Source: a virus. Taken from it: a stretch of DNA of 64,000 bases. The notes beneath the pieces are model-generated. The model saw only the letters and a list, made by a program, of their open reading frames with translations, searched no databases and had not been told where the DNA came from. The stretch is taken from IMG/VR virus record IMGVR_UViG_3300045988_164636, positions 32,001-96,000 of that record, one strand, 5' to 3'. Below are positions 1-18,022 of this stretch, piece after piece. Within the stretch, counting starts at the first letter, position 1. Each line of letters begins with the position of its first letter. The translations under genes were made by a program, and so were the position numbers.

Positions 1-21
1 AAGAGAAAGGAAATTAAAAAT

Positions 22-444
22 ATGAGGTTATGGCATACGGATTTAATATCTGTTCTTCCAAAGGAACAGCTTGTAGGTCAATGGAGAGAACTTTCCGCAA
101 TAGCAGGTTCAATTAAGCAGAAAGGTACTCCCAACCATCTTCTTGTTAATTTTGTAATGGATTATGATTTAGACCATTTTATTAATTATGCTCGTATGAT
201 AAGAGCGGAAATGACAAAAAGAGGATACAGAACTGCTAATTCTGTTTGGGAAAAGATAGCTTCTCTAAAAGAAGATTATACTCTTATAAAAGACAAAGAA
301 GTTTATCCTGATATTATGAATAGTCAATATCTTTCAATTTGTTATGAAAATCTTCTGGAAAAATTCATTAGAGGTGGCATATCAGAAGAGGATATGAACA
401 ATATAGAAGAAGTTTTTAAAGAAGCATTTGAAGTAAATATGTAA
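22..444 (+). CDS. pyrimidine-dimer DNA glycosylase / endonuclease V-like (DenV family) protein
   Basis: 140-aa ORF. The opening MRLWHTDLISVLPKEQLVGQWRE matches my memory of the MRLWH..LI..LP..QLLGQ.RE start of the Pyr_excise family. Confidence 0.55.
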   Translation: MRLWHTDLISVLPKEQLVGQWRELSAIAGSIKQKGTPNHLLVNFVMDYDLDHFINYARMIRAEMTKRGYRTANSVWEKIASLKEDYTLIKDKEVYPDIMNSQYLSICYENLLEKFIRGGISEEDMNNIEEVFKEAFEVNM

Positions 445-454
445 AAAAAATCAT

Positions 455-483
455 TTGAAAAAATAAAAAATTTTTGTTATAAT
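455..483 (+). promoter_or_regulatory. sigma-70-type promoter: TTGAAA, 17-bp spacer, TGtTATAAT (extended -10)
   Basis: TTGAAA at 455-460 and TATAAT at 478-483 with TG at -15/-14. It lies in a ~45-nt block repeated almost exactly at 1196-1240. Confidence 0.6.
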
Positions 484-512
484 ATATATACAATAAAGAA
501 AGGAAATAAAAA

Positions 513-746
513 ATGCAGACGATTTATAAGATGAAGTTAAATACAATTAATGATGTTAAGTCTTTTGTCGATGCGGCAAATGAATATAAGGGAAGAATTA
601 CTGTCCGCAATATGCACTACGCTGTAGACGGAAAGTCAATCATGGGAATTTTTTCAATTGATTTGTCGGGTATTCTTGATGTAGAATTTGATAATGAACC
701 CAGTAATGAAATACTTGATTTATTTAAGAGTTGGAGAGTTAAGTGA
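513..746 (+). CDS. HPr-like phosphocarrier-domain protein
   Basis: 77-aa ORF with an aaaggaaat RBS. The segment VDGKSIMGIFSIDLSG resembles the conserved (A/D)KSImg..sL.. core of the PTS HPr family. Confidence 0.45.
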   Translation: MQTIYKMKLNTINDVKSFVDAANEYKGRITVRNMHYAVDGKSIMGIFSIDLSGILDVEFDNEPSNEILDLFKSWRVK

Positions 747-1198
747 AGGAAGTTCATATTTTAATAGGAATCCCCGCAAGTGGTAAATCTACTTTTGCTA
801 AAAATTTTGTTTTCTCTCATAAAGGGTACAAAATTGTATCAACAGATGATATAAGATGGAAGTTATTTGGAGATGCAAGTATACAGGGAAATCCTAAGAT
901 GATTTTTGCTATTGCTCACAAAGAAATTATGTCTTATTTAGATAAAGGATATAATGTTATATTTGACGCAACAAATATATCAAGAAAAAATCGAGTAAAT
1001 CTTATTAATTTTTTAAAAGAATGTGAAGTAGAAAATGTTGTGGCGGATTATTTTCCTGTTACAATAGATGTTGCTCTTGAGAGAAATCAGCAAAGAAAAA
1101 GACACGTTCCAGAAAAAGTTATTCATAAGATGTTTGGCAAAATTGAGAAGCCTAAATATGAGGAAGGATTTTCAGAAATAAATTGCCACAACGATTAA
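743..1198 (+). CDS. P-loop kinase, polynucleotide-kinase-like (AAA_33 type)
   Basis: Walker A GIPASGKST, then STDDIR, FDATN and a lid-like ERNQQRKRHVP. The layout resembles the kinase domains of T4 Pnk and Clostridium thermocellum Pnkp. GTG start overlaps the upstream stop. Confidence 0.55.
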   Translation: MKEVHILIGIPASGKSTFAKNFVFSHKGYKIVSTDDIRWKLFGDASIQGNPKMIFAIAHKEIMSYLDKGYNVIFDATNISRKNRVNLINFLKECEVENVVADYFPVTIDVALERNQQRKRHVPEKVIHKMFGKIEKPKYEEGFSEINCHND

Positions 1199-1199
1199 T

Positions 1200-1228
1200 T
1201 TGAAAAAATAAAAAATTTTTGTTATAAT
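1200..1228 (+). promoter_or_regulatory. promoter of the tRNA cluster: TTGAAA-N17-TGtTATAAT
   Basis: TTGAAA at 1200-1205 and TATAAT at 1223-1228. It is a near-identical copy of the 455-483 promoter block. Confidence 0.6.
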
Positions 1229-1281
1229 ATATATACAGTTTGAGAAAGAAATAAAAATTAAAAAATCTCAAACTTAGATAT

Positions 1282-1357
1282 TGCGGGATGATGCAGAGGT
1301 AACATGTTAGCTTAGTAAAACTAATTACAGAGGGTTCAAGTCCTTCTCCCGCCACCA
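1282..1357 (+). tRNA. atypical tRNA-like gene, anticodon undetermined
   Basis: Exactly 76 nt. It has a 6-bp acceptor stem with a 1:72 mismatch, a T arm (gaggg/ttcaagt/ccttc), discriminator A and an encoded CCA. The D stem has only 3 bp. The anticodon arm folds as gttag/ctaat closing a 10-nt loop (cttagtaaaa), or as a longer hairpin with a tetraloop. No canonical 7-nt anticodon loop can be drawn. Confidence 0.45.
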
Positions 1358-1526
1358 GTGGATTTTCATATTCCGCTTTCTACGAGCGATAGCTTGCATG
1401 AGAAGTAGACGGGACCGGTCATCAATGATTGCAAGGTTGAGAACTTCCGCTTCAATTCCTTTAAATAGTTATATCTCCTGCGGGAATATGACAGCCTTGA
1501 AATTGCGATAGAGAGGTAGGTTTTAT
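1358..1526 (+). other. structured non-coding spacer containing a tRNA 5'-half-like segment (1400-1440)
   Basis: gagaagt at 1400-1406 is complementary to the 3' acceptor strand tcttctc at 1586-1592. The hairpin tcaat/gttga at 1422-1440 carries gattgcaag in its loop, echoing ttgattgcaatg at 1551-1562. No plausible ORF is present. Confidence 0.3.
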
Positions 1527-1596
1527 GGGAAGATAGCATAAAAAATGCACTTGATTGCAATGAGGGATATTGGTTGAAATCCAATTCTTCTCACCA
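1527..1596 (+). tRNA. atypical short tRNA-like gene (possible UGC or GCA anticodon)
   Basis: 7-bp acceptor stem gggaaga/tcttctc, U8, a perfect 4-bp D stem gcat/atgc with an all-A 5-nt D loop (no GG), and a T arm attgg/ttgaaat/ccaat (G at position 56). Discriminator A and CCA are present. Only 19 nt are available for the anticodon arm plus variable loop. The best fold is a 4-bp stem with loop attgcaa. Confidence 0.4.
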
Positions 1597-1600
1597 ATAT

Positions 1601-1676
1601 GGAGATGTAGCTCAGATGGTAGAGCAACGGGCTTTTAATCCGTGAGCCAAGGGTTCGAACCCCTTCATCTTCACCA
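1601..1676 (+). tRNA. tRNA-Lys (anticodon UUU)
   Basis: Full cloverleaf: ggagatg/catcttc acceptor, tagctcagatggtagagc D arm, acggg-cttttaa-tccgt anticodon arm, gggttcgaacccc T arm, and encoded CCA. Confidence 0.9.
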
Positions 1677-2102
1677 GCCGCAGTTTCTTATATAATTAAT
1701 CTGAGGGACTAAATTAAAATTGATTATATAGAGAGAATAAACATGGATTTAGTAGATAAACTACCACCGATTGATTAATTCAAGTATGTGGCTCGTGGCT
1801 TAAACTCTCTACAAAAAATAAGGCAAAGTAATCTACAATATGGTATTATCTGTACCAAGGTCTTAACCTCGAGACCTTATAAATAAAGAAGGAGATAATT
1901 GCTCTACTCGTAGTCTCATTAGCTTTAAAAGCAACAGAACGAGGACTAACTAAGTGATTCATGAGTCACTGGTTAGGTTCAGTAGTAGATTTAGCCTGTA
2001 TCGGCTTGGTGTACGAGAAATTGCGTCATAGACGTGGTTTCTGAGGCACGCTGGAGAATTTAGACATCCAGAGGAAGTAGATCCTACTACTGAATTAAAT
2101 AT
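1677..2102 (+). ncRNA. approximately 425-nt structured non-coding spacer between tRNA-Lys and tRNA-Glu (candidate large ncRNA)
   Basis: No ORF. Long-range helix ttcagtagtag (~1978-1988) pairs with ctactactgaa (~2083-2093). Local hairpins include aaggtct...agacctt (~1857-1878), ctcgt...acgag and ctaac..gttag around a near-palindrome gtgattcatgagtcac. Confidence 0.35.
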
Positions 2103-2179
2103 GGCACCATCTTCTAATAAGGTCAGGAAACCGGTCTTTCACATCGGTAATATGGGTTCAAATCCCGTTGGTGTCACCA
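2103..2179 (+). tRNA. tRNA-Glu (anticodon UUC)
   Basis: Acceptor ggcacca/tggtgtc, anticodon arm ccggt-ctttcac-atcgg, T arm atggg-ttcaaat-cccgt, discriminator A and CCA. Confidence 0.8.
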
Positions 2180-2184
2180 AATTT

Positions 2185-2263
2185 ACGTCATTAGCTCAGC
2201 TGGATTAGTAGCAACCGCCTTCTAAGCGGTAGGTCATAGGTTCGAATCCTATATGGCGTGCCA
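2185..2263 (+). tRNA. tRNA-Arg (anticodon UCU)
   Basis: Acceptor acgtcat/atggcgt, D arm tagctcagctggattagtagc, anticodon arm accgc-cttctaa-gcggt, T arm atagg-ttcgaat-cctat, and CCA. Confidence 0.88.
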
Positions 2264-2303
2264 ATCAAAAGAATTTTAATAATTATGGTTATTGATTCTG
2301 TTT

Positions 2304-2379
2304 ACCGGTATAGCTTAGTCGGTAAAGCGTCGGACTGTTAATCCGTAGACCGTAGGTTCAAGTCCTACTACCGGTGCCA
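2304..2379 (+). tRNA. tRNA-Asn (anticodon GUU)
   Basis: Acceptor accggta/taccggt, D arm gctt-agtcggta-aagc, anticodon loop ctgttaa, T arm gtagg-ttcaagt-cctac, and CCA. Confidence 0.85.
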
Positions 2380-2560
2380 ATGTCGTAGTTTGTATGTTTA
2401 CAGCGACTTTAAATAAATTGATTAGACATTCTATCAGGCTCATGTTGTTAGCACCTTTTGTGAAATTAGCTAATCTAAGTTAGCCGCCATCCTGATAAAA
2501 ATAAAAACTTTGCGAACAAAAGAGTGTAAGCGGATAATGCTTAGACATTTCCGTGTATTA

Positions 2561-2636
2561 GCTGGAATAGCATAATTGGTGATGCAACGCTCTTGTAAAG
2601 CGGAGACTGTAGGTTCGAGTCCCACTTCCAGCACCA
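2561..2636 (+). tRNA. tRNA-Thr (anticodon UGU)
   Basis: Acceptor gctggaa/ttccagc, D arm gcat-aattggtg-atgc, anticodon loop cttgtaa, T arm gtagg-ttcgagt-cccac, and CCA. Confidence 0.85.
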
Positions 2637-2641
2637 TTTAT

Positions 2642-2715
2642 GTGGATATAGTTCAATGGTAGAATGCTAGCCTTCCAAGCTAGATATGCGAGCTCAATTC
2701 TCGTTATCCACTCCA
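2642..2715 (+). tRNA. tRNA-Gly (anticodon UCC)
   Basis: Acceptor gtggata/tatccac, anticodon arm ctagc-cttccaa-gctag, T arm gcgag-ctcaatt-ctcgt (unusual T loop), and CCA. Confidence 0.82.
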
Positions 2716-2918
2716 TCAAGAACACCTCTTTCACTCTAAAAAGTTAAATTCTTGGAATTAATGATCAAACAACATAAAATCCGATGTTTTGTATTGGTAG
2801 TTGAAAAATAAAAAGGAATAATATTAGCAACAATATTATTATACTTATATTTTTTGAGTGCCATAGTTTTAGGTTAATAGAGTGGAGAATAAAAGGTTGC
2901 TATTTTATTCTCCGATAT

Positions 2919-2992
2919 TGCACAGTCGCCAAGTGGCAAAAGGCAGTAGACCTTGACTCTACCATTCGCTAGTTCGAATCTAGCCTGTGCAG
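2919..2992 (+). tRNA. tRNA-Gln (anticodon UUG), with C at position 33
   Basis: Acceptor tgcacag/ctgtgca, D arm gcc-...-ggc, anticodon arm gtaga-ccttgac-tctac, T arm gctag-ttcgaat-ctagc. No CCA is encoded directly. The loop reads c-c-TTG-a-c, so the usual U33 is a C. Confidence 0.7.
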
Positions 2993-3081
2993 GACCAACG
3001 TCTTTAGTAACCTCCCCGTGGTGTTGGTTGGGTAATTCTAATACTAAAGTTTCGATAGAGGACACTTCCTCATAAAGCGGC

Positions 3082-3101
3082 TACAGCAAATATTCTTATA
3101 A
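3082..3101 (+). repeat. 20-nt direct repeat copy 1 (tacagcaaatattcttataa) in a hairpin loop
   Basis: Identical 20-mer at 3226-3245. This copy is enclosed by the stem aaagcgg (3074-3080) / ccgcttt (~3124-3130). Confidence 0.8.
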
Positions 3102-3225
3102 ATTGGATTATGAAAAATTTTTTCCGCTTTGTTAATTTATTTAAGACGGACAAACAGCAACTTCAAATGATAAATTATTTTTATGTTAAGCCTCCTTCCA
3201 TCCGTCTTGAAAATAGAAAGAGCCT

Positions 3226-3245
3226 TACAGCAAATATTCTTATAA
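3226..3245 (+). repeat. 20-nt direct repeat copy 2 (tacagcaaatattcttataa) in a hairpin loop
   Basis: Identical to 3082-3101. It is enclosed by the stem agagcc (3220-3225) / ggctct (~3267-3272). Confidence 0.8.
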
Positions 3246-3281
3246 TACTTTTTATTATATTAATTAGGCTCTTGTATTTAC

Positions 3282-3325
3282 AAAAAATGCGGAATGATAA
3301 TATAAAAATCATTCCGCATTTTTTA
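3282..3325. terminator. rho-independent terminator ending the tRNA region (A-tract, hairpin, T-tract; potentially bidirectional)
   Basis: Stem gcggaatga (3289-3297) / tcattccgc (3309-3317), flanked by aaaaaat and attttttt. Confidence 0.75.
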
Positions 3326-3344
3326 ATATAGAAAGGAATTAACT

Positions 3345-3623
3345 ATGGTATCATTTGAATTAAAAGAAAATCAAACTGGATATGAAGTCATAGAAGATTA
3401 TTTTGTAAAAAAATTTAATTTTCGTTTAGGAATTTATGAACAATATCTTGTTGCTTTGGAAATATCATATGATAATGTTTATTGGACAAGAGTTACAGAT
3501 ATATTACAAACAGATTCAATGTATTTTGAATGGGGTATAGATTGGTATGAAGGTGAAAAATATATTCATCTTTTAGGTGTTAAAAATATAGAAGATATTG
3601 ACATTATTGGAGAAGGAGTTTAA
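3345..3623 (+). CDS. hypothetical protein
   Basis: 92-aa ORF with RBS gaaaggaatt. Its stop directly abuts the next start. Confidence 0.5.
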   Translation: MVSFELKENQTGYEVIEDYFVKKFNFRLGIYEQYLVALEISYDNVYWTRVTDILQTDSMYFEWGIDWYEGEKYIHLLGVKNIEDIDIIGEGV

Positions 3624-3624
3624 A

Positions 3625-5073
3625 ATGACAATTACTGAACAACTTACAGATATGTTATCAGAAAAAAGAACTGAAAATGGAGCAATCTCATGGAGTACAA
3701 CACAGTCTAGAATTATAGATATGTTTGCTTCAATAGGCGGCAAAAGAAATGCTTCAACAGAAGAAATAGAAAATATATATCTTGCCGCACGAACAGAAAA
3801 TGCGGATTTAGCTGACAAGATGATTTTCTATTGTAGAGATATTCTTGGGGGACTGGGAGAAAGACGTATTGGAAGAATATTGCTTCATAAATTAGCTTGT
3901 ATTGACCCTGATAAAATGAAAAGAAATTTTAACTTAATTGCAAAGTATGGTAGATGGGATGACTTTTATTGTTTAGAATATACTCCCTGTGAAATGGATA
4001 TGTGGGAATATTTATATGGACAACTTATATTCGATCATATGGAATATACGTTACGCACTGGAAATGTTTCATTACTTGCTAAATGGCTTAAGAGTGAAAA
4101 TGCTTCTTCTGCGGAAGCTAAAAGACTTGCCCGCAAGTTTTGTCAGATAAATAATATCTCTTATAAAAAGTATAGAAAGATACTTTCAGAATTAAGAAAA
4201 TATATAAATGTAATTGAAACTAAAATATCTAAAAATGAATGGAATACAATTGAATATTCAACTATTCCTTCAATAGCTCATCATAAATATTCAAGTGCTT
4301 TTGCAAAACATGATAGAGAAAGATATACAGAATATCTTGAAAAATTAAAATCAAATAGTCCAGAAGTAAAGATAAATGCAAAGACGATAACTCCCGCAAC
4401 AATTATTTCAAATATATCTAATCCAGCGGCAGAAGCTCAGTGGAATGCCTTACCTAACTATTTTACTGGTAACAAGAATATCATTTGTTGTGCAGATGTT
4501 AGTGGTTCAATGAGGTATAGTGGCTGTTGTTCGGGAACTCAACCAATAGATAATTCAATAGGATTAGCAATGTATTGTGCAATGCACAATAATGGAATTT
4601 ATAAAAATAAATATTTGACTTTTACTGATAAACCTACATTAATTGAATATGATTCAAAAAGAGATTTAGCATATAACGTTGGACGAGCAAAAACTCATAT
4701 AGGATATAACACTAATCTCGATGGAATGTTTGAAGCAATTTATGAGGCGGCATCCGCAGCACACAGGTCACCAGAAGGTCTTGTAATTGTTTCAGATATG
4801 GAAATAGATAGCTTTTTAGCAGAAAATAAAACAGATGGCATAGTTGATAAGTGGTCAAAAAAGTTCCATGCTGCTGAGCTTGCATTTTTCCCCGTTGTAT
4901 TTTGGAATGTTGATGCTCGTAATGACTTTACTATATTAAATAAAATTAAAAATCCTTATGTTAAATATGCAAGTGGCAATTCTCCTACAATATTTAGCAA
5001 TCTTGAAACAATTATGGATAAATCTCAGTATGATGCAATAGTAGAAATATTAAATAAGTATGAAGTGGTTTAA
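3625..5073 (+). CDS. DUF2828-type (TROVE/Ro60-related) protein with a C-terminal vWA domain
   Basis: Start chosen at ATG 3625 after RBS gaaggag. The N-terminal TENGAISWSTTQSRIIDMF matches my memory of the TENG..(Y/F).S(T/S)g...LD.F DUF2828 signature. The vWA MIDAS motif ADVSGSM is present. Confidence 0.55.
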   Translation: MTITEQLTDMLSEKRTENGAISWSTTQSRIIDMFASIGGKRNASTEEIENIYLAARTENADLADKMIFYCRDILGGLGERRIGRILLHKLACIDPDKMKRNFNLIAKYGRWDDFYCLEYTPCEMDMWEYLYGQLIFDHMEYTLRTGNVSLLAKWLKSENASSAEAKRLARKFCQINNISYKKYRKILSELRKYINVIETKISKNEWNTIEYSTIPSIAHHKYSSAFAKHDRERYTEYLEKLKSNSPEVKINAKTITPATIISNISNPAAEAQWNALPNYFTGNKNIICCADVSGSMRYSGCCSGTQPIDNSIGLAMYCAMHNNGIYKNKYLTFTDKPTLIEYDSKRDLAYNVGRAKTHIGYNTNLDGMFEAIYEAASAAHRSPEGLVIVSDMEIDSFLAENKTDGIVDKWSKKFHAAELAFFPVVFWNVDARNDFTILNKIKNPYVKYASGNSPTIFSNLETIMDKSQYDAIVEILNKYEVV

Positions 5074-5091
5074 TACCACTTCATTTTTTTA
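5062..5091 (+). terminator. rho-independent terminator
   Basis: Stem gaagtgg / ccacttc overlapping the stop codon, followed by attttttt. Confidence 0.65.
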
Positions 5092-5171
5092 TATGTATGG
5101 GTAAAATAAAAACATCTAATTGCTGTATTTTTTAATTATTATTGTAATATAAAGAAAGGAGCTAATGTCTT

Positions 5172-5333
5172 ATGATTAATATAATCGGACAAGGAGATAA
5201 AACAACAACTTATTTAATGTCTTATGTTGCTGATACAGAAGCAGATATTACTGCGGAAGAACCTTCTGATAATATAGCAATTGGTAGCACTTGCTTAGTT
5301 ATAGAAACTTCTAATGTATATATTGCTTGGTAG
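5172..5333 (+). CDS. small hypothetical protein (53 aa), possibly fibre-associated
   Basis: Too short for the ORF track. It reads ATG 5172 to TAG 5331-5333 (MINIIGQGDKTTTYLMSYVADTEADITAEEPSDNIAIGSTCLVIETSNVYIAW), with aaaggagc 9 nt upstream. Confidence 0.35.
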   Translation: MINIIGQGDKTTTYLMSYVADTEADITAEEPSDNIAIGSTCLVIETSNVYIAW

Positions 5334-5371
5334 TGATAGACAATGGCATTTATTATAAGGGGGTAATTTAA

Positions 5372-7072
5372 ATGGATATGACTTTATATGCCCTTTTAAA
5401 CAAAAAAATAAAAGGCGTTATTTCTGGAGTAGATTCTGTTCAAGTAAAAAATCAAAATTTAGTTTTTAATTTTACAGATGGGTCTACTCAAACAATGATA
5501 TTCCCTACTCCCGCAGATGGAAAAAATGGTACTAGCATTATAGATATAGATGTAGATGCGGCTAACCATTTAATTTGTACAATGTCAGATAACACTATTA
5601 TTGATGCAGGTATAGTCAATACTGTGCAAGGTGAGAGAGGTCCCGCAGGAAAAAATGGAAAAGATGGCAAAAATGGTATCAATGGACAAGATGGTATAGA
5701 TGGTATTTCGCCTACTGTTACAATAACTGAATCAACAGGCAGACATACTATATCTATTACAGATAAAGAAGGAGTAAAATCTTTTGTTGTTAAAGATGGT
5801 TCTGCTCTTGATGTAGAAGACTATTATACAAAAGATGAAGTTAATGCAGAATTAGATAAAAAAGCTAATGCGGCAGATTTACCTACTATACCTACCAATT
5901 TATCTGAATTTAATAATGATGAAAACTTCATCAAAAATACTGTTGATAATCTTATTCATTACTATAATAAAGCAGATACATATACACAGACAGAAGTTAA
6001 TAACTTAATTGCAAATATACAAAAATTAACTTCTCAAATTGTTACAGAATTACCCACTGAAAATATTGATACAAGTGTTATATATTTAATAAAGCAAGAA
6101 GAATCTAATTCTTATATGCAATATATGTATATCAATAATGCTTGGGCGGAATTAGGTACAACACAAGTAGATTTATCTAATTATTATAATAAAAGTGAAA
6201 TAGATAATAAACTTGCGGAAAAGGCTGATAAAACAGAATTACCTACAGTTCCAACTATGGTTTCCGCATTTATTAATGATGCAAAGTATATAAGTGATTA
6301 TACTGAAACAGACCCAACTGTTCCTACATGGGCTAAAGCTAAAACTAAACCTACATATACAGCTGCAGAAGTTGGAGCATTACCTGATGATACTGAGGTA
6401 CCTATTTTTACTAATAAGCAAGTGCTTGATAGCATTACTTCTGAAAAAGTTAATGGCTGGGATGAAGCTGCCGCAAATAAGCATACTCATGAAAATAAAA
6501 TTGTGATTGATAAATTCTCTGAAAATGATGAGGGGAAAGTTGTATATGATAACAAACCTTTAGCAAGTGATAATCTTTGGCATGGTACGCAGGCAGATTA
6601 TGATGCTCTTGGTGAATATGACGAGAATAAGACTTATGTTATTACTGACGGCGGCGAAGATGTTGATTTAAGCGAGGTCGTAATTGACGATAGTTCTACT
6701 ACATCTGAAAAAAAGTCTTGGTCTGTGAAGAAGATAAATGATACTATTGTTTTGAAAAATACTAGAATATTATATAAAAACGCTCCGACATCTTCAGGAA
6801 TGACAACCTTTACATTAAATATATCCTCTTTAGGATTGACCCATGGCATATATCATTTTAAATGTTATATAGTAGGTAATGGCAATGTCGCTCATTGTGC
6901 TGAAGGCAGTATTGGACAATATAATGGTAGTTATTACATATCTATTGATTATAAATCATCTCACATTTCCAGTATCGTTGTAAACGGAACAACAATTACA
7001 GTCACAACTTCTGCAGCTCATTATAATCTTAGTTTTTCTATTCAATCAATATATGATTGGGCAGAATCATAA
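5372..7072 (+). CDS. tail fibre protein with a collagen-like segment
   Basis: Gly-X-Y run GERGPAGKNGKDGKNGINGQDGIDG. There are repeated (K/T)AD(L/K)..(I/V)PT.(L/V)S.F.ND modules. RBS is aagggggt. Confidence 0.75.
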   Translation: MDMTLYALLNKKIKGVISGVDSVQVKNQNLVFNFTDGSTQTMIFPTPADGKNGTSIIDIDVDAANHLICTMSDNTIIDAGIVNTVQGERGPAGKNGKDGKNGINGQDGIDGISPTVTITESTGRHTISITDKEGVKSFVVKDGSALDVEDYYTKDEVNAELDKKANAADLPTIPTNLSEFNNDENFIKNTVDNLIHYYNKADTYTQTEVNNLIANIQKLTSQIVTELPTENIDTSVIYLIKQEESNSYMQYMYINNAWAELGTTQVDLSNYYNKSEIDNKLAEKADKTELPTVPTMVSAFINDAKYISDYTETDPTVPTWAKAKTKPTYTAAEVGALPDDTEVPIFTNKQVLDSITSEKVNGWDEAAANKHTHENKIVIDKFSENDEGKVVYDNKPLASDNLWHGTQADYDALGEYDENKTYVITDGGEDVDLSEVVIDDSSTTSEKKSWSVKKINDTIVLKNTRILYKNAPTSSGMTTFTLNISSLGLTHGIYHFKCYIVGNGNVAHCAEGSIGQYNGSYYISIDYKSSHISSIVVNGTTITVTTSAAHYNLSFSIQSIYDWAES

Positions 7073-7091
7073 AAAAGGAGAGTGAAACAAT

Positions 7092-7976
7092 ATGCCTATT
7101 ATGCAAGGTAACAAGCAAGTTGCAAATGTTTATAATATAAATAACAATTTTTATTCTATGCCTATTGGTTGCATCATTCCTTTTAGCAGTAATACAATTC
7201 CTGCAGGTTTTTTACTTTGTGATGGTTCAGAGGTATCAAAGGCGGATTATGCAGATTTGTTTGCTATTATTGGAAATATTTATGGAGCAGCAATAGATAC
7301 AAGTAAATTCAAGTTACCTGATTTAAGGGATGAATTTGTACAAGGTGCTAATAATAATTTGGGCACGGGTAAAGATGCTGGACTTCCGAATATCACCGGT
7401 ACGTTTTATCATGATACAAATGCAAAAGCTGGACTATCAGGTGCGTTTACATATAAAGGTACAGGTCGACAAAATTTAGCAAATGACACGCCAACAAATT
7501 CTGGTCTAGTAACATTTGACGCTTCAAAATCAAACTCAATATATGGTAACTCAAACACAGTCCAGCCGCCGGCGGTTTGTCTTAATTATATTATTAAGGC
7601 TACAAATGTATCTGATATACCCATAGATACGACAAATATTATTGATGATACAACAACTACCGCAACAGATAAAACTTATTCTGCTAATAAGATAAATAAT
7701 ATGATGGCTATATTCCCTTTTAAATGGGAATTAATAGGAACCTCTTCTTCAGAAGAAGTTACAACTTTTAAGCAAACAATGTCAAGCGGAAGTCCTTTCT
7801 GTGTATATCACAGTTCTGGAATATTCTGTTTCGGTAATGGCATTCCCGCCAATAGAGGAAAACTCTACGGAATGACTACTGGAGCAGTTGCTTCTGTTGA
7901 ATATACTACTGCAGGTTTACTTACAGTACAAGTAACTGCCGGAACAGCTTATATTTATGAAATGAAAACAATATAA
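7092..7976 (+). CDS. tail-collar domain fibre protein
   Basis: IIPFSSNTIPAGFLLCDGSEVSKADYADLFAIIGNIYG...FKLPDLRDEFVQG matches the phage tail collar domain pattern. Confidence 0.75.
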   Translation: MPIMQGNKQVANVYNINNNFYSMPIGCIIPFSSNTIPAGFLLCDGSEVSKADYADLFAIIGNIYGAAIDTSKFKLPDLRDEFVQGANNNLGTGKDAGLPNITGTFYHDTNAKAGLSGAFTYKGTGRQNLANDTPTNSGLVTFDASKSNSIYGNSNTVQPPAVCLNYIIKATNVSDIPIDTTNIIDDTTTTATDKTYSANKINNMMAIFPFKWELIGTSSSEEVTTFKQTMSSGSPFCVYHSSGIFCFGNGIPANRGKLYGMTTGAVASVEYTTAGLLTVQVTAGTAYIYEMKTI

Positions 7977-8060
7977 CTATTTGCAATTCCATAAAATTTT
8001 TGATATAATATAAATAGAAGATGAATTTAATATTCATTTTCTATCCCCTTTCTATTTACT

Positions 8061-8101
8061 CAGCAGTTAGATATGGAAATTATCTAGCTGCTGTTTTTTT
8101 A
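8061..8101 (+). terminator. rho-independent terminator of the plus-strand fibre genes
   Basis: Stem cagcagttagata / tatctagctgctg, followed by tttttttt. Confidence 0.75.
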
Positions 8102-8103
8102 TG

Positions 8104-8136
8104 CAAAAAAATAAAAGGGTACGATTGCTCGTACCC
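8104..8136 (-). terminator. rho-independent terminator of the minus-strand lysis/structural block
   Basis: Stem gggtacg / cgtaccc. The A-run on the plus strand is a T-run downstream on the minus strand. Confidence 0.7.
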
Positions 8137-8180
8137 TACACAATAGTAAATCCAAAACCAAAAATATGGTTTAAGATTTT

Positions 8181-9416
8181 TTATTTCAAAATTAGGTTTT
8201 TCACATTTACTGCGGCAGTTACTTGATTATTAAGTCCAATTACCGCTCTATCTCCAACTAATTCAAGAACTGTAAATTTGGTACTATATACCCAAGAAGA
8301 TAATGTGCCACCATAATAATCTTTGGCATTTTTCTTTACCATTACAATTGAACCTTTATTTATTTTCGTTGACTTGTTTGTCTTTTTATTTGCTAAGTAC
8401 AGCTTTGAATCTAATAATATTGCAGTAACTTTTCCTTTTAATCCGATAGTAATATTTTTGCCATTTACCGCTAATACATCAAATACAGTATGATAAACCC
8501 AAAAAGCTAATTTAGCTCCATTGATAGCTGTTGCATTTTTTACAACTCTAACTTTATTACCCTTCTTAAATTTAGAAGTAGTAGTGGTGGTAGTAGTAGG
8601 TTTCTTTACTGTGGAAGTTTTTACAACAATCAGATCTTTTGAATTAACTGCGGCCGTTACCGCTCCATCAATCCCGATTACGACTCTATTTCCAGACACT
8701 TCCATTACATCAAAGACTGCATCATAAACCCAAGAGGCAAGATTTCCGCCGTCGTAAATTTTTGCTCCAGATTTAACTCTTACTTTATCGCCTTTTTTAA
8801 TGGTATTAGTTGTTGGTTTATTGTCGTTGGTTGACTTATATTCTTTATAACATAAATTAGAATCAACATCTTTGCCGCCAATTTTTTCAATACCCCATTG
8901 CCACATAACTTGATTATAATTATATTTACTTGGTATTTTTGGATCATATGTCCAGTTAGCTAACCAAATATCATATTTATTTACTAATCTTGCTTTATCA
9001 AAATAATTTTCAAGCCAAGAGGGATTGGCATAGATACCATAAGGAATACCAATCTCTTTCATTGTATTACAGAAAGTTACCGCCATATCTGTTCTTTGTT
9101 TGGTTGTAAGCATTTCAATTTGCTTTTGTTCTTCCATATCAAAGAAACAAGGATAAGTAGGATTTTGACCTTTTACAACAGAAACGCAAGCATTTAATTC
9201 TTTTTCAAAAGTCTTACCATCTGTTGCTTCAAAGTACCAGTAAAATCCATAAGGAATACCATATTTTCTGCAAGCGGCAAGATTTTTATCAAAATAGCTA
9301 TCCTTATCAGTTCTAATTCCAGCTCTAATGATGATGAATTTTACCCCTGCTTTTTTTGCAGCTTCAAAATCAAAGTTTTCTTGCGCCCTGCTTATATCAA
9401 TGCCTTTAATCTGCAT
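8181..9416 (-). CDS. endolysin: GH25 muramidase with three tandem C-terminal SH3b-like wall-binding repeats
   Basis: KGIDISRAQENFDFEAAKKAGVKFIIIRAG is a GH25 opening. Three ~65-aa repeats follow (KKGDKVRV...WVYDAVFDV..., KKGNKVRV...WVYHTVFDV..., NKGSIVMV...WVYSTKFTV...). Start placed at the second ATG (9416), which has better RBS spacing. Confidence 0.85.
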   Translation of the reverse strand: MQIKGIDISRAQENFDFEAAKKAGVKFIIIRAGIRTDKDSYFDKNLAACRKYGIPYGFYWYFEATDGKTFEKELNACVSVVKGQNPTYPCFFDMEEQKQIEMLTTKQRTDMAVTFCNTMKEIGIPYGIYANPSWLENYFDKARLVNKYDIWLANWTYDPKIPSKYNYNQVMWQWGIEKIGGKDVDSNLCYKEYKSTNDNKPTTNTIKKGDKVRVKSGAKIYDGGNLASWVYDAVFDVMEVSGNRVVIGIDGAVTAAVNSKDLIVVKTSTVKKPTTTTTTTSKFKKGNKVRVVKNATAINGAKLAFWVYHTVFDVLAVNGKNITIGLKGKVTAILLDSKLYLANKKTNKSTKINKGSIVMVKKNAKDYYGGTLSSWVYSTKFTVLELVGDRAVIGLNNQVTAAVNVKNLILK

Positions 9417-16831: not shown

Positions 16832-18022
16832 ATGTTAAACCCCAAAACTCAAGAAAGAGAACTTTGTTATGTAGTTGAAATTAATGATATTCAGCCTATT
16901 CCTAATTATGATAGAGTTGAATTAGCAACGGTAAATGGTTGGCATATCATCGTTCAGAAGAATCAGTTTAAGGTCGGAGATAAGGCTGTTTATTTTGAAG
17001 TAGATTCAAGAGCACCTGAAAGTGCGGAATTTGATTTTCTTGCCAAGAGAAAGTATAAAATTAAGACTTTAAAAATGTGCGGCTGCATTTCTCAAGGATT
17101 ACTTATGTCTTTTGCAGATTTTGGTTTTGCAGAAGATGAATATAATATAGGAGATTTTTTAACTAAGAAATTAAATGTTACTTATGCTGATGATGAAGAT
17201 AATGCAAGAAAGGCACCTTCCGCAGATAAGTATAAAAAGATGGAAATGCGTCATAAAAAACTTTTTAAAAATTCTTTTGTAAAGAAAGTTATGCAGTATG
17301 AAGTTGGACGTAAGATAATGTTTGTTTTCTTTGGTAAGAAGAAAGATAAGAAGTCAAGTTTCCCTAACTGGGTTGTGAAAACTGATGAAGAAAGAGCCGA
17401 AAACCTACCCTATCTATTTAATAGCAAGAATAGAGAATCTATGCATTGGATGGTTACAGAAAAGATTGATGGAACTTCTGCAACATTCACTTTGAAGAAG
17501 ATAGGTAAGCATAAGTACGATTATCGAGTATGTTCAAGAAATGTATGTTTTGATAAGCCTGATAAGAAATGCTTCTATGAAACAAATGTGTATACTGAAA
17601 TTGCAGAAAGATATAATATGGAGCAGAAACTTAAGCAGCTATTTGAAATAAGTGAAGATATAGTTTTTGTTACAATTCAAGGCGAAATATACGGGAAAAA
17701 AATCCAAAAGAGAGATTATAATATGGAAGGAACAGATCTTGCTATTTTTAATGTTATTTTTGGTTATAAAGATGGTTCAACAGAAAGGTTAAATCCTCGT
17801 GAAATGGAAGTCATTATGAAGATATATAATCTTCCTACTGTTCCAGTCCTTGATTATAACTTTACTTTACCTGTAACTTGTGATGAAATGTTAGAATATG
17901 CGGCAAGTGAAAAATCAAAAATAGACGGCGGTATGCGTGAAGGTGTTGTATTAAGAAGTTTTGATGGTAAGCAATCTTTTAAGGCTGTATCAAGAGATTT
18001 CTTACTCAAATATCATAGTTAA
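16832..18022 (+). CDS. RNA ligase, DraRnl (DRB0094) type
   Basis: The N-terminal OB-like module (VVEINDIQPIPNYDRVELATVNGWHIIVQKNQFKVGDKAVYFEVDS) is typical of the DRB0094 family as I remember it. Nucleotidyl-transferase motif I TEKIDGTS (KxDG) is present. Confidence 0.7.
   Translation: MLNPKTQERELCYVVEINDIQPIPNYDRVELATVNGWHIIVQKNQFKVGDKAVYFEVDSRAPESAEFDFLAKRKYKIKTLKMCGCISQGLLMSFADFGFAEDEYNIGDFLTKKLNVTYADDEDNARKAPSADKYKKMEMRHKKLFKNSFVKKVMQYEVGRKIMFVFFGKKKDKKSSFPNWVVKTDEERAENLPYLFNSKNRESMHWMVTEKIDGTSATFTLKKIGKHKYDYRVCSRNVCFDKPDKKCFYETNVYTEIAERYNMEQKLKQLFEISEDIVFVTIQGEIYGKKIQKRDYNMEGTDLAIFNVIFGYKDGSTERLNPREMEVIMKIYNLPTVPVLDYNFTLPVTCDEMLEYAASEKSKIDGGMREGVVLRSFDGKQSFKAVSRDFLLKYHS

What the first reader, a model, noticed from the sequence alone, without database searches (positions are those of the whole stretch)
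3625..5073. TROVE/Ro60-related vWA protein placed directly after the tRNA-like RNAs
The protein starts with the DUF2828-type signature (TENGAISWSTT...IDMF). I recall this family being described as TROVE-related (the Ro60 family). It ends with a vWA domain carrying an intact MIDAS DVSGSM, which is the Ro60 architecture. Bacterial Ro60 orthologues work with Y RNAs that contain tRNA-like modules and are linked to RNA-repair operons. Here the gene follows a cluster containing tRNA-like RNAs that lack anticodon loops. A phage-encoded Ro-like RNP for RNA quality control or repair during infection would be unusual.
Basis: inference. Interest (0 to 1): 0.65.

Follow-up and report, generated by a model that had tools for sequence, protein, structure and literature searches.

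The report
Phage Ro-like protein with companion hairpin RNAs
The gene is an ordinary member of a very common phage family of Ro60-like RNA-binding proteins that sit beside phage tRNA genes, but here and in most relatives it is flanked by an apparently undescribed small hairpin RNA motif that may be its RNA partner.

Summary
The ORF at 3625-5073 (+) is real. It matches Pfam DUF2828 plus DUF7788 (a vWA domain with an intact MIDAS) and PHROG 850, "RNA-binding protein". Its AlphaFold model hits only Ro60/TROVE structures over its full length. Sequence profiles link only the vWA part to Ro60.

The family is not rare. It occurs in 701 deposited phage genomes and is often annotated "Ro-like RNA binding protein". 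The homologue Bas63 gp130 (32% identical) was reported to counter the Ppl defence, and its Ro60 likeness and tRNA adjacency were noted then.

Linkage to tRNA arrays is strong: 67 of 83 related loci have tRNAs within 6 kb, and all 445 tRNAs are on the gene's strand.

I found a better candidate: a 55-75 nt hairpin with a covarying 7-9 bp stem and a single-stranded NCAGCWA at the 5' side of its loop. It lies next to the gene in 59 of 75 loci, against 7 of 75 on the opposite strand. It is present in all ten cultured phages examined and as three tandem copies here (3072-3273). It has no Rfam match, and one literature search found no description of it.

Most likely this is a Ro-like RNP module serving tRNA maintenance or counter-defence. 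RNA binding is untested.

The parts
743..1198 (+). P-loop kinase, polynucleotide-kinase-like, directly upstream of the tRNA array
   Evidence: Pfam AAA_33 (2.5e-22) and KTI12. Best PDB sequence matches are Pnkp1, seryl-tRNA(Sec) kinase, the C. thermocellum Pnkp kinase domain and T4 Pnk. Position is conserved in relatives L083-L085.
1200..1228 (+). Sigma-70-type promoter-like site in front of the tRNA array
   Evidence: TTGAAA-17-TATAAT with TG, 11 of 12 matches. Identical in L083. A consensus match only.
1282..1357 (+). tRNA-like gene with an abnormal anticodon arm
   Evidence: Rfam tRNA 34.3 bits. Default ARAGORN rejects it; relaxed ARAGORN calls a 4-nt anticodon in an 8-nt loop. Conserved in L083 with a compensatory acceptor-stem change.
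1527..1596 (+). Weak tRNA-like gene, possibly tRNA-Ala(UGC) with a 4-bp anticodon stem
   Evidence: Rfam tRNA 37.5 bits. Relaxed ARAGORN calls tRNA-Ala. Absent from L083 as a clean indel of about 71 nt.
1601..2993 (+). Array of 7 canonical tRNA genes (Lys, Glu, Arg, Asn, Thr, Gly, Gln) with conserved spacers
   Evidence: ARAGORN and Rfam, 53-76 bits.
1855..2102 (+). Stable structured non-coding RNA inside the array, function unknown
   Evidence: MFE -78.5 kcal/mol, z -4.71, 0 of 200 shuffles fold as well. About 89% conserved in relatives L092-L094. No Rfam match.
2988..3050 (+). HDV-like (theta-type) ribozyme-like element abutting the 3' end of tRNA-Gln
   Evidence: Rfam drz-agam-1 30.6 bits, below the gathering score of 37. 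The same arrangement occurs in L083 and L085.
3072..3132 (+). NCAGCWA hairpin unit 1
   Evidence: Stem AUAAAGCGG/CCGCUUUGU with ACAGCAA at the 5' side of the loop. The MFE keeps the closing stem, z -2.2.
3142..3209 (+). NCAGCWA hairpin unit 2
   Evidence: Stem UAAGACGGA/UCCGUCUUG plus ACAGCAA. z -2.5.
3218..3273 (+). NCAGCWA hairpin unit 3
   Evidence: Stem AAGAGCCU/AGGCUCUU plus ACAGCAA. z -2.7. Only these three of the eight plus-strand ACAGCAA sites in the 64-kb window carry the upstream stem consensus.
3287..3327 (+). Terminator-like hairpin followed by a T run
   Evidence: Read from the sequence: GCGGAAUGA...UCAUUCCGC then UUUUUU. The scan tool did not call it because the loop is longer than 8 nt.
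3345..3623 (+). 92-aa ORF of unknown function whose stop lies 1 nt before the Ro-like start codon
   Evidence: No Pfam match. 88.5% nucleotide identity in L083.
3625..5073 (+). Ro60-like RNA-binding protein of the DUF2828/DUF7788 family: helical ring plus vWA domain with MIDAS
5060..5084 (+). Intrinsic-terminator-like hairpin at the end of the gene
   Evidence: 10-bp stem followed by TTTTTTT.
16832..18022 (+). Rnl5-type RNA ligase; part of the phage's RNA-repair equipment, not adjacent to the gene
   Evidence: Pfam PHA02142 OB domain plus RNA_ligase. Naegleria RNA ligase 5cot, E 5.5e-25.

Best explanation
Gene 3625-5073 encodes a member of the DUF2828/PHROG-850 family, a divergent Ro60-like protein. 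Its N-terminal alpha-helical TROVE-like domain and its C-terminal vWA domain with an intact MIDAS would form a Ro60-like ring.

The gene belongs to the phage's tRNA/RNA-maintenance region. That region runs: Pnk-like kinase, promoter, tRNA array with embedded non-coding RNAs, three NCAGCWA hairpins, small ORF, Ro-like gene, terminator.

Proposed mechanism: the ring binds small structured RNAs encoded next to it, most plausibly the 55-75 nt NCAGCWA hairpins. These have a stem formed by the 5' and 3' ends and a large loop with a conserved single-stranded motif, which recalls the general Y-RNA layout (5'/3' stem plus large loop). The resulting RNP would either chaperone or screen phage tRNA transcripts, or occupy or redirect a host nuclease or defence protein during infection.

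Shown here: family membership, the Ro60-like predicted fold, the MIDAS, the linkage to tRNA arrays, and the linkage to the hairpin motif.
Shown by others for relatives: counter-defence by Bas63 gp130. For the Thermus phage phiLo Ro60, which my model resembles only in fold: binding of Y-like RNAs and of host PNPase.
Inferred: RNA binding by this protein, the hairpins as its ligand, and the target of the RNP.
For: Identity:
- Pfam and PHROG matches.
- More than 6000 homologues, all listed ones with the same two domains.
- Full-length homology to Bas63 gp130: 32% identity, E 5e-70.

Fold:
- AlphaFold2 pLDDT 84.7, pTM 0.76.
- Foldseek ranks 1-13 are all Ro60/TROVE, including the phage phiLo Ro60 entries 9kop and 9l5y.
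- hhalign aligns the vWA domain to Ro60's (80-90% probability) with DVSGSM in register; the first run also took in the preceding helix.

tRNA linkage:
- The nearest tRNA is within 500 nt in 36 of 83 loci, within 2 kb in 56 of 83, and within 6 kb in 67 of 83.
- 30 loci have tRNAs on both sides, and 445 of 445 tRNAs are on the gene's strand.
- The same holds in Felixounavirus, Tsamsavirus, Pecentumvirus, Fletchervirus, Schiekvirus and a Klebsiella phage.

Y RNA link:
- The DUF2828-type gene of mycobacteriophage UPIE is followed by a YrlA-like RNA (39.8 bits, E 2.5e-5 in the 59.6-kb multi-locus search, full model length).

Hairpin motif:
- ACAGCAA occurs 221 times on the gene strand against 48 on the other strand (about 49.5 expected per strand).
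- 50 copies lie within 250 nt upstream of the start, where about 1 is expected.
- Stems of at least 7 bp occur at 92 of 226 sites, against 83 of 700 random positions and 1 of 51 opposite-strand sites.
- G.U pairs are favoured over A.C, 41 against 13, which indicates RNA-level pairing.
- With the relaxed definition, 59 of 75 loci have a unit within 700 nt, against 7 of 75 on the opposite strand. Density is 1.10 per kb near the gene and 0.13 per kb further away.
- All ten cultured phages examined have it next to the gene.
- Reverse search from the motif: 12 of 23 stem-bearing matches have a DUF2828 gene on the same strand, against 2 of 58 stem-less matches (p-values).

Published function of relatives: PMC11482910 (gp130 counters Ppl) and PMC12135203 (phiLo Ro60 binds Yrl1/Yrl2 and host PNPase).
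Against: - No experiment shows RNA binding by any DUF2828 protein.
- Bas63 gp130 expressed alone from a plasmid rescued T7, which has no tRNAs or hairpins, on Ppl cells (PMC11482910). At least that activity therefore needs no phage RNA.
- The N-terminal domain shows no significant sequence-profile similarity to TROVE in my tests. The Ro60 relationship for that half rests on a predicted structure with modest TM scores (0.44-0.59, rmsd 7-11 A).
- The hairpins also occur away from the gene inside tRNA arrays, and 16 of 75 loci lack a detectable unit nearby. Several of these are truncated contigs.
- In some phages the hairpin abuts or covers the RBS (Vibrio L217, L014). This fits a cis-regulatory role as well as a trans partner.
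- The loci are phylogenetically related, so the p-values overstate independence.
- I could not make a proper covariance-model or R-scape test.
Confidence: 0.5

Rival explanations
1. The protein is a protein-targeting anti-defence factor. It inhibits a host defence enzyme of the Ppl type directly, for example through its vWA/MIDAS surface. The neighbouring RNAs are only co-regulated early or middle genes. The hairpins are cis elements (5'/3' UTR stabilisers, translational operators or processing sites) for this gene and for tRNA transcripts.
For: - gp130 alone, from a plasmid or inserted into T7, restores plaquing on Ppl cells (PMC11482910).
- vWA/MIDAS domains are classic protein-interaction modules (established knowledge).
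- Some hairpins sit immediately before or over the RBS/start codon (L014, L021, Vibrio L217).
- Many follow a -10 box by 10-20 nt, so they would form the 5' leader.
Against: - The whole-protein fold matches an RNA-binding ring, not only a vWA domain.
- Hairpins lie upstream, downstream or separated from the gene by tRNAs, often in 2-5 tandem copies. That is atypical for a single cis operator.
- One lineage pairs the gene with a YrlA-like Y RNA.
- gp130 acting without phage RNAs does not exclude a host RNA partner.
Confidence: 0.25
2. The hairpins are generic punctuation of phage tRNA arrays, such as RNase processing signals or spacers. They appear linked to the gene only because the gene sits in or beside the array. 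The Ro-like protein acts on tRNA precursors or damaged tRNAs themselves.
For: - 84 units lie in far flanks, mostly in tRNA arrays.
- Several units start about 5 nt after a tRNA 3' end.
- Some loops contain T-arm-like or anticodon-arm-like hairpins.
- 14 of 23 independently found units have same-strand tRNAs nearby.
Against: - Units flank the gene where no canonical tRNA is within the locus or within 1.5 kb: L042, L046, L048, UPIE, Staphylococcus phage 6ec, Vibrio L217.
- Density is 8-fold higher within 700 nt of the gene than in the rest of the loci, which include the arrays.
- In the 64-kb window the three units lie after the array, next to the gene, not between tRNAs.
Confidence: 0.12
3. One reading: this is a canonical Ro60-Y RNA pair whose Y RNAs are the tRNA-like RNAs at 1282-1596 (or RNAs in 1677-2102).
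For: - Two tRNA-like genes with abnormal anticodon arms exist.
- Sub-threshold tRNA-like elements, many with 30-60 nt insertions in the anticodon loop, are in large excess on the gene strand (162 against 27).
- 16 of them lie within 350 nt upstream of the gene, including in loci without canonical tRNAs.
- YrlA RNAs mimic tRNA (PMC4201824).
Against: - There is no YrlA match in the window at E<=10 in 1200-3350, or at E<=1 in 1-9000.
- The window's two elements have open acceptor ends with encoded CCA, unlike the permuted YrlA layout seen.
- They lie 2.0-2.3 kb from the gene.
- 1527-1596 is missing from the relative whose protein is 90% identical.
- Many of the 'insertion' tRNA-like calls contain the NCAGCWA hairpin, so they may be the same signal.
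Confidence: 0.08

Closest known systems
Bas63 (Escherichia phage JohannRWettstein) gp130, reported counter of the Ppl defence system (PhageMaP preprint, PMC11482910)
   Same: Full-length homologue: 32% identity, E 5e-70, with the same DUF2828 plus DUF7788 domains. It lies beside a tRNA array on the same strand. An NCAGCWA hairpin is present in that array (L082 32239-32296).
   Different: In Bas63 the gene lies upstream of the array; here it lies downstream. No defence context or phenotype is known for the window's phage. The authors did not report the hairpin motif; they speculated that some of the tRNA genes are Y RNAs.
Bacterial Ro60 (Rsr) with Y RNAs (Yrn1, YrlA), including the rsr-yrlBA-rtcBA RNA-repair operon
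   Same: Predicted ring of helical repeats closed by a vWA/MIDAS domain. The DVSGSM motif aligns. Genes for small structured or tRNA-related RNAs lie next to the protein gene. RNA-repair enzymes are in the same genome or nearby (RtcB in the Listeria phage).
   Different: No Pfam TROVE or vWA_Ro60 match. About 10-15% identity in the structural alignments. About 480 aa against about 530. No YrlA in the window. The companion RNA is a simple hairpin with NCAGCWA, not a tRNA-mimicking Y RNA.
Thermus phage phiLo Ro60 with Yrl1/Yrl2 (PDB 9KOP, 9L5Y; PMC12135203)
   Same: It is the best structural match (E 3.5e-9, TM 0.57-0.59) and is of similar length, 463 aa. It is phage-encoded, with small RNAs encoded directly upstream of the gene. 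It was shown to bind those RNAs and host PNPase.
   Different: No detectable sequence similarity to the DUF2828 profile. Yrl RNAs were defined by a CGAA motif, not NCAGCWA. No tRNA-array context was reported.
Mycobacteriophage cluster C Ro (Bxz1 gp220) with YrlA-like RNA (PMC4201824)
   Same: A phage Ro protein with an adjacent Y RNA. I recovered a YrlA-like hit upstream of gp220 (32.5 bits).
   Different: gp220 is a canonical TROVE plus vWA_Ro60 protein. No convincing NCAGCWA hairpin lies near it.

Membership tests
DUF2828/DUF7788 family (Pfam PF11443 + PF25043; PHROG 850 'RNA-binding protein') | Matches to both Pfam models above the gathering score, in N-to-C order | tested here: met
   PF11443 101.3 bits (cut-off 29) and PF25043 63.5 bits (cut-off 27.1).
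DUF2828/DUF7788 family (Pfam PF11443 + PF25043; PHROG 850 'RNA-binding protein') | Full-length match to PHROG 850 | tested here: met
   E 4.2e-99, residues 9-478 on profile positions 12-471 of 476.
DUF2828/DUF7788 family (Pfam PF11443 + PF25043; PHROG 850 'RNA-binding protein') | Conserved N-terminal TENGA motif and DxSxS...T...D MIDAS | tested here: met
   E17, N18, D291, S293, S295, T363 and D391 are invariant in 34 sequences.
Ro60 / TROVE family (Pfam PF05731 + PF25045) | Sequence match to the TROVE domain model | tested here: not met
   No PF05731 or PF25045 hit at E<=1. Neither phmmer with the protein nor an HMM of 34 homologues finds any Ro60 chain in the PDB. hhalign of the N-terminal halves gives probability 0.6% and finds no N-terminal alignment with deeper profiles. 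My profiles were shallow (Neff 2-3.4), so a deep HHpred run could still succeed.
Ro60 / TROVE family (Pfam PF05731 + PF25045) | vWA domain of the Ro60 type with MIDAS | tested here: met
   hhalign to the Ro60 vWA domain gives 90% (E 1.5e-6) and 79.5% (E 1.5e-5), with DVSGSM aligned.
Ro60 / TROVE family (Pfam PF05731 + PF25045) | Fold: ring of helical (HEAT-like) repeats closed by the vWA domain | tested here: met
   Predicted structure only. Foldseek ranks 1-13 are Ro60 structures aligned over 503-572 columns, TM 0.44-0.59. vWA-only hits have TM about 0.24. Ring closure itself was not inspected.
Ro60 / TROVE family (Pfam PF05731 + PF25045) | Adjacent Y RNA (YrlA/Yrn type) | tested here: not met
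   No YrlA or Y_RNA hit in window 1-9000 at E<=1, or in 1200-3350 at E<=10. The feature is met for one family member, mycobacteriophage UPIE (39.8 bits).
Ro60 / TROVE family (Pfam PF05731 + PF25045) | Binds Y RNA or misfolded RNA | not testable with these tools
   Needs biochemistry.
Anti-Ppl counter-defence proteins (Bas63 gp130 type) | Homology to gp130 over the full length | tested here: met
   32% identity over 482 columns, E 5e-70.
Anti-Ppl counter-defence proteins (Bas63 gp130 type) | Relieves Ppl-mediated restriction | not testable with these tools
   Reported only for gp130, in a preprint (PMC11482910).
NCAGCWA hairpin RNA motif (defined here) | 7-9 bp closing stem, 0-4 nt linker, NCAGCWA at the 5' side of a 10-75 nt loop, on the gene strand within 700 nt of a DUF2828 gene | tested here: met
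   Three units at 3072-3132, 3142-3209 and 3218-3273, ending 352 nt upstream of the gene. The motif is found in 59 of 75 loci.

The most novel reading that the evidence does not exclude
The NCAGCWA hairpins are a previously undescribed class of small phage RNAs. They would be the cognate, Y-RNA-like ligands of DUF2828 Ro-like proteins in phages of at least four bacterial phyla (Bacillota, Pseudomonadota, Campylobacterota, Actinomycetota). Protein and hairpins together would form an RNP that protects the phage's tRNA supply or neutralises host RNA-directed or nuclease defences.
Probability: 0.3. Interest if true: 0.8.

Novelty: new variant of a known kind. Interest (0 to 1): 0.6.

Why it matters
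Ro60-Y RNA particles are conserved from bacteria to humans, and in bacteria they work with exoribonucleases on structured RNA. Their role in phages is barely explored.

DUF2828 proteins occur in about 700 deposited phage genomes, including well-used model and therapy-relevant phages (Felix O1-like, Listeria P100-like, Enterococcus Schiekvirus and Campylobacter Fletchervirus phages, and Staphylococcus phage 6ec). One member has been reported as a transferable counter-defence gene.

A conserved small RNA that travels with the gene gives a concrete, testable candidate for the missing RNA partner. It also offers a handle on why phage tRNA arrays so often carry this gene.

If the hairpins are only regulatory, they are still a widespread phage RNA motif absent from Rfam.

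As far as the protein alone goes, the finding is ordinary: a new member of a known, already annotated family.

Tried and rejected
1. Sequence searches of the PDB with the protein and with a 34-sequence profile found no Ro60. Only structure comparison did.
2. I ran hhalign against a 4-sequence TROVE alignment and then a 124-sequence one. The larger one was built from Bxz1 gp220 homologues plus Ro60 sequences copied from the PDB alignments. Only the vWA part aligned. The N-terminal relation remains unproven by sequence.
3. YrlA/Y RNA searches in the window were negative. Searches in five tRNA-less related loci were negative apart from a weak lone tRNA-like hit in L048.
4. I built a tRNA covariance model (R1) to list sub-threshold tRNA-like elements. 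I replaced it with relaxed ARAGORN, using the opposite strand as control.
5. The spacer 1677-1843 is 95-97% identical in relatives whose proteins are 54-57% identical. It is not unusually stable (z -0.7) and has no match in the phage collection. It remains unexplained.
6. The spacer 1355-1526 shows some compensatory changes (7 of 50 predicted pairs) but no unusual stability. This is inconclusive.
7. I considered ACAGCAA as a promoter element; some copies read TGCTTA-CAGCAA, like a T4 MotA box. I rejected this for four reasons. The motif usually lies downstream of -10 boxes. It is strand-specific. Its flanking stems covary. G.U pairs outnumber A.C.
8. MAFFT alignment of 40 hairpins (A7) did not put the 3' strands in register. 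I therefore built no covariance model of the motif and ran no formal covariation test. Support rests on enrichment statistics instead.
9. The supplement of Chen et al. 2014 listing the phage YrlA RNAs was not available.
10. A literature search for the motif found only unrelated primer sequences.
Full report
**1. The observation**

The ORF at 3625-5073 (+) is real. It has an ATG preceded by AAGGAG and encodes 482 aa. The N-terminus reads KRTENGAISWSTTQSRIIDMF and the C-terminal half contains CCADVSGSM.

Pfam places it in PF11443 (DUF2828, E 7e-29) and PF25043 (DUF7788, E 2e-17). PHROGs places it in phrog_850, 'RNA-binding protein' (E 4e-99, full length). In an alignment of 34 homologues, the MIDAS residues D291, S293, S295, T363 and D391 and the TENGA residues E17 and N18 are invariant.

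The gene follows a same-strand cluster of seven canonical tRNAs at 1601-2993. The cluster also contains two weaker tRNA-like genes:
- 1282-1354: Rfam tRNA 34.3 bits.
- 1527-1593: Rfam tRNA 37.5 bits (gathering score 29).

Default ARAGORN rejects both. With relaxed thresholds it reads the first as a tRNA with a 4-nt anticodon in an 8-nt loop, and the second as a weak tRNA-Ala(UGC). The anticodon arms are therefore abnormal rather than missing.

The gene is not directly adjacent to the tRNAs. About 630 nt separate it from tRNA-Gln. That interval holds other elements and a 92-aa ORF.

**2. Is it Ro60-like?**

Sequence alone does not show it.
- phmmer and an HMM of 34 homologues find no Ro60 chain in the PDB.
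- Pfam TROVE does not match.

An AlphaFold2 model built from the 34-sequence alignment is confident (mean pLDDT 84.7, pTM 0.76). Residues 1-280 are all-helical and a Rossmann-like domain follows.

Foldseek against the PDB gives the following:
- Ranks 1-13 are exclusively Ro60/TROVE structures: Thermus phage phiLo 9kop and 9l5y, Xenopus 1yvp/1yvr/2i91, human 9nen and related entries, and Deinococcus Rsr 2nvo.
- These have E 3.5e-9 to 4e-6 and are aligned over 503-572 columns at TM 0.44-0.59.
- Proteins that share only a vWA domain follow at TM about 0.24.

For a positive control I fetched Bxz1 gp220, a canonical TROVE plus vWA_Ro60 protein. I then built TROVE alignments of 4 sequences and later 124 sequences. 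hhalign links the C-terminal part to Ro60's vWA domain at 90% and 79.5% probability, with DVSGSM in register; the first run also took in the preceding helix. The N-terminal halves do not align significantly (probability 0.6%).

My conclusion is a Ro60-like architecture by predicted fold, Ro60-type vWA homology by profile, and no demonstrated TROVE sequence membership.

**3. How common and how known?**

The family is large. More than 6000 proteins at E<=1e-5 were found among the candidates scored, and all listed ones have the same two domains.

tblastn finds it in 701 of 50,697 deposited phage records:

| Host genus | Records |
|---|---|
| Escherichia | 120 |
| Mycobacterium | 95 |
| Salmonella | 77 |
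| Vibrio | 56 |
| Listeria | 54 |
| Staphylococcus | 42 |
| Campylobacter | 37 |
| Enterococcus | 36 |
| Bacillus | 28 |

Annotators already call it 'Ro-like RNA binding protein' or 'RNA-binding protein'.

The literature holds several relevant points:
- Y RNAs lie next to Ro60 in bacteria and mycobacteriophages (PMC4201824).
- The phiLo phage Ro60 has a solved structure. It binds two upstream Y-like RNAs and host PNPase (PMC12135203).
- A review notes ROT/TROVE proteins in jumbo phages as RNA-repair platforms (PMC7824862).
- The PhageMaP preprint reports that Bas63 gp130 counters the Ppl defence and can be moved to T7. The authors remark on its Ro60-like structure and its position next to the tRNA genes (PMC11482910).

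I verified that gp130 is a full-length homologue of the window protein: 32% identity, E 5e-70, same domains.

**4. Linkage to tRNA arrays**

I collected 80 related viral loci and 3 contigs of close relatives. Results:

| Distance to nearest tRNA | Loci (of 83) |
|---|---|
| within 500 nt | 36 |
| within 2 kb | 56 |
| within 6 kb | 67 |

- 30 loci have tRNAs on both sides of the gene.
- All 445 tRNAs are on the gene's strand.

Cultured phages show the same pattern:
- Felixounavirus VpaE1 and Bas63: the array starts 165 nt after the gene.
- Bacillus phage Tsamsa: 19 tRNAs, then the gene.
- Listeria phage LMTA-148: tRNAs and a ROOL RNA upstream, split RtcB 1.3 kb downstream.
- Campylobacter F360: tRNA-Met 243 nt upstream.
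- Enterococcus Bop: an array upstream.
- A Klebsiella phage: the gene is embedded in the array.

Exceptions are a Vibrio Schizotequatrovirus and mycobacteriophage UPIE. UPIE instead has a YrlA-like RNA directly after the gene. It scores 39.8 bits, at E 2.5e-5 in the 59.6-kb multi-locus search and E 1.9e-7 when only the intergenic stretch is searched, and covers the full model length, with T arm, closed acceptor-like hairpin and D arm well matched. That is the first sequence-level tie between a DUF2828 protein and a Y RNA that I am aware of from these data.

**5.

- tRNA-like 1282-1357 is conserved in the relative whose protein is 90% identical (L083). It shows a compensatory acceptor-stem change there.
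- tRNA-like 1527-1596 is absent from L083 as a clean indel.
- Stretch 1677-1843 is 95-97% identical in relatives whose proteins are only 54-57% identical. It is not unusually stable.
- Stretch 1855-2102 folds very stably (z -4.7) and is conserved in relatives.

None of these is specifically tied to the gene.

A broader pattern does exist. Relaxed ARAGORN finds 162 extra tRNA-like elements on the gene strand against 27 on the opposite strand in 69 loci. Many have 30-60 nt insertions in the anticodon loop. Sixteen lie within 350 nt upstream of the gene, including in loci without canonical tRNAs.

**6. A hairpin motif that tracks the gene**

Folding those elements exposed a recurring 'hairpin + ACAGCAA'.

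*The 7-mer* (p-values):
- ACAGCAA occurs 221 times on the gene strand against 48 on the other strand, in 0.81 Mb (about 49.5 expected per strand).
- 50 copies lie within 250 nt upstream of the start codon, where about 1 is expected.
- 80 copies lie within 600 nt, in 41 of 70 loci.

*Architecture*. Each copy sits 0-4 nt after the 5' strand of a 7-9 bp stem. The 3' strand lies 10-75 nt downstream. A typical form is 5'-(U)AAG-RC-RC..ACAGCAA..loop..GY-GY-CUU-G.

*Stem variation*. Stem sequences differ freely while pairing is kept. Examples are AAGGCGC/GCGCCUU, AAGACAC/GUGUCUU, GUGAUGCUU/AAGCAUCAU, AGACCAA/UUGGUCU and UGAGCGC/GCGCUCA.

*Stem statistics*:
- Stems of at least 7 bp occur at 92 of 226 sites. 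The controls are 83 of 700 random positions and 1 of 51 opposite-strand sites.
- G.U pairs add 41 further stems of at least 8 bp, while A.C pairs add 13. This points to RNA pairing on the gene strand.

*Core motif*. Close relatives L084 and L085 carry the variants CCAGCAA, UCAGCAA and ACAGCUA, so the core is NCAGCWA.

*Relaxed definition*:

| Measure | Gene strand | Control |
|---|---|---|
| Loci with a unit within 700 nt of the gene | 59 of 75 | 7 of 75 (opposite strand) |
| Units within 700 nt | 114 | 7 (opposite strand) |
| Density | 1.10 per kb (near the gene) | 0.13 per kb (remaining flanks) |

*Cultured phages*. All ten examined have units beside the gene:

| Phage | Position of the units |
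|---|---|
| VpaE1 | about 340 nt downstream |
| Bas63 | about 500 nt downstream |
| UPIE | 42 nt downstream |
| Tsamsa | 93 nt upstream |
| LMTA-148 | three units, 74 nt upstream |
| Staphylococcus 6ec | three units, 20 nt downstream |
| Campylobacter F360 | two units, 22 nt upstream |
| Vibrio | one unit, over the start codon |
| Enterococcus Bop | three motif copies upstream; one with a detected stem ends 83 nt before the gene |
| Klebsiella | two units, 120 nt downstream |

*Reverse test*. A scan of viral contigs for AAGGCGCNNACAGCAA gave 81 matches. Of the 23 with the complementary 3' strand, 12 have a DUF2828 gene in the short locus held, all on the same strand. Of the 58 without it, which are chance matches, 2 do.

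*In the window*. Only three of the eight plus-strand ACAGCAA sites carry the upstream stem consensus, and they are tandem: 3072-3132, 3142-3209 and 3218-3273. They lie between the tRNA-Gln/ribozyme-like element and the small ORF plus Ro-like gene. Their MFE structures keep the closing stem and leave ACAGCAA single-stranded, with z from -2.2 to -2.7.

*Prior description*. No Rfam 15 family matches these positions in the window or in the annotated phage loci. One literature search for the motif found no description of it. The canonical TROVE gene of Bxz1 has no such hairpin nearby.

*Caveats*. The loci are related, so the p-values overstate independence. The stem search is permissive. I could not produce a register-correct alignment for a covariance model.

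**7. Context in the window**

The window is part of a large low-GC phage genome. It encodes Pol III alpha, gyrase A and B, NAD-dependent ligase, NrdD, DnaB-like and UvrD-like helicases, RecJ and several homing endonucleases. Relatives occur in viral contigs of the IMG/VR collection.

The local order is conserved in relatives:
1. DenV-like glycosylase
2. HPr-like protein
3. Pnk-like kinase
4. Promoter-like site (1200-1228)
5. tRNA array
6. Hairpins
7. ORF92
8. Ro-like gene
9. Terminator (5060-5084)
10. Tail fibre and lysis genes

The kinase's best PDB matches are RNA-repair and tRNA kinases. An Rnl5-type RNA ligase lies at 16832-18022. The phage therefore carries end-healing and sealing enzymes as well as the Ro-like protein.

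**8. Interpretation**

Most likely (about 0.5): a Ro60-like RNA-binding protein works as part of the phage's tRNA/RNA-maintenance and counter-defence equipment, with the NCAGCWA hairpins as its RNA ligand or scaffold. Those hairpins recall Y RNAs in general layout (5'/3' stem plus large loop).

Rivals:
- A protein-targeting anti-defence factor whose neighbouring hairpins are cis-regulatory (about 0.25). This is supported by gp130 working alone in T7.
- Hairpins as generic tRNA-array punctuation (about 0.12).

**9. Verdict**

The protein by itself is a new member of a known, already annotated family, and the Ro60/tRNA idea has been published for a homologue. The added value is the quantified tRNA-array linkage, the YrlA-like RNA beside a DUF2828 gene, and above all the apparently undescribed hairpin motif that accompanies the gene across distant phages.

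Noticed in passing
window 2988-3050 (also L083 2216-2279, L085 5741-5797): An HDV-like ribozyme-like element starts at the 3' end of tRNA-Gln(UUG). It scores drz-agam-1 30.6 and 30.2 bits and HDV-F-prausnitzii 30.0 bits, all below the gathering scores. The arrangement is conserved in relatives and resembles the 'theta ribozymes' reported next to tRNAs of gut phages (PMC10879173).
   Followed up: partly
window 1677-1843: A 167-nt spacer between tRNA-Lys and the next element is 95-97% identical in L083, L084 and L085. Their Ro-like proteins are only 90%, 57% and 54% identical. It is not unusually stable (z -0.7), has no Rfam hit and has no match in the deposited phage collection. Four more viral contigs carry it.
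   Followed up: partly
window 1855-2102: A 248-nt non-coding stretch inside the tRNA array folds far better than shuffles (-78.5 kcal/mol, z -4.7), with a 12-bp long-range helix. It is about 89% conserved in L092-L094, where it sits after tRNA-Glu instead of before it. No Rfam family matches.
   Followed up: partly
69 related loci (L001-L091), gene strand: Relaxed ARAGORN finds 162 sub-threshold tRNA-like elements on the gene strand against 27 on the opposite strand. Many have 30-60 nt insertions at anticodon-loop position about 32. Several of these insertions contain the NCAGCWA hairpin. One example is L048 5703-5825, a lone tRNA-like RNA 176 nt upstream of the gene in a locus without tRNAs.
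   Followed up: partly
L089 4538-4646 (Mycobacterium phage UPIE, JF704113 record 40257-40365): A YrlA-like Y RNA (39.8 bits, full model length) lies directly downstream of the DUF2828-type 'Ro-like' gene gp53. It is flanked by NCAGCWA-type hairpins at 4455-4508 and 4654-4743.
   Followed up: partly
L091 2424-2975 (Listeria phage LMTA-148): A ROOL RNA (90 bits, E 7.5e-17, just under the gathering score of 99.1) lies in the tRNA region about 1 kb upstream of the DUF2828 gene. A split RtcB RNA ligase lies 1.3 kb downstream.
   Followed up: no
window 743-1198 and 16832-18022: There is a polynucleotide-kinase-like P-loop kinase (best PDB matches Pnkp1, PSTK, CthPnkp and T4 Pnk) and an Rnl5-type RNA ligase (Naegleria RNA ligase, E 5.5e-25). 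Together they form a potential RNA end-healing and sealing pair. A 77-aa HPr-like protein (513-746) always precedes the kinase in relatives.
   Followed up: partly
L010 1766-1846, L016 1692-1768, L017 8554-8630, L021 580-735, L038 876-960; Klebsiella phage L219 2032-2106: tRNAs with a CUA anticodon (amber suppressors, labelled 'Pyl' by the tools) occur in several tRNA arrays that carry the gene. This hints at stop-codon recoding in those phages. The window itself has none.
   Followed up: no
L082 32748-32900 (Bas63 CDS bas63_0137, opposite strand): A further copy of the AGACCGUUUACAGCAA motif (L082 32790) lies inside a 50-aa hypothetical CDS annotated on the opposite strand, within the tRNA array. 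That small CDS may be a mis-annotation of a non-coding RNA region.
   Followed up: no
window 31228-32190, 35175-36044, 51561-52691: Three homing-endonuclease-like ORFs (two GIY-YIG, one LAGLIDADG) are interspersed in the replication and nucleotide-metabolism module. The one at 51561-52691 follows an apparently short NrdD ORF (50221-51528), so a split or intron-interrupted gene is possible.
   Followed up: no
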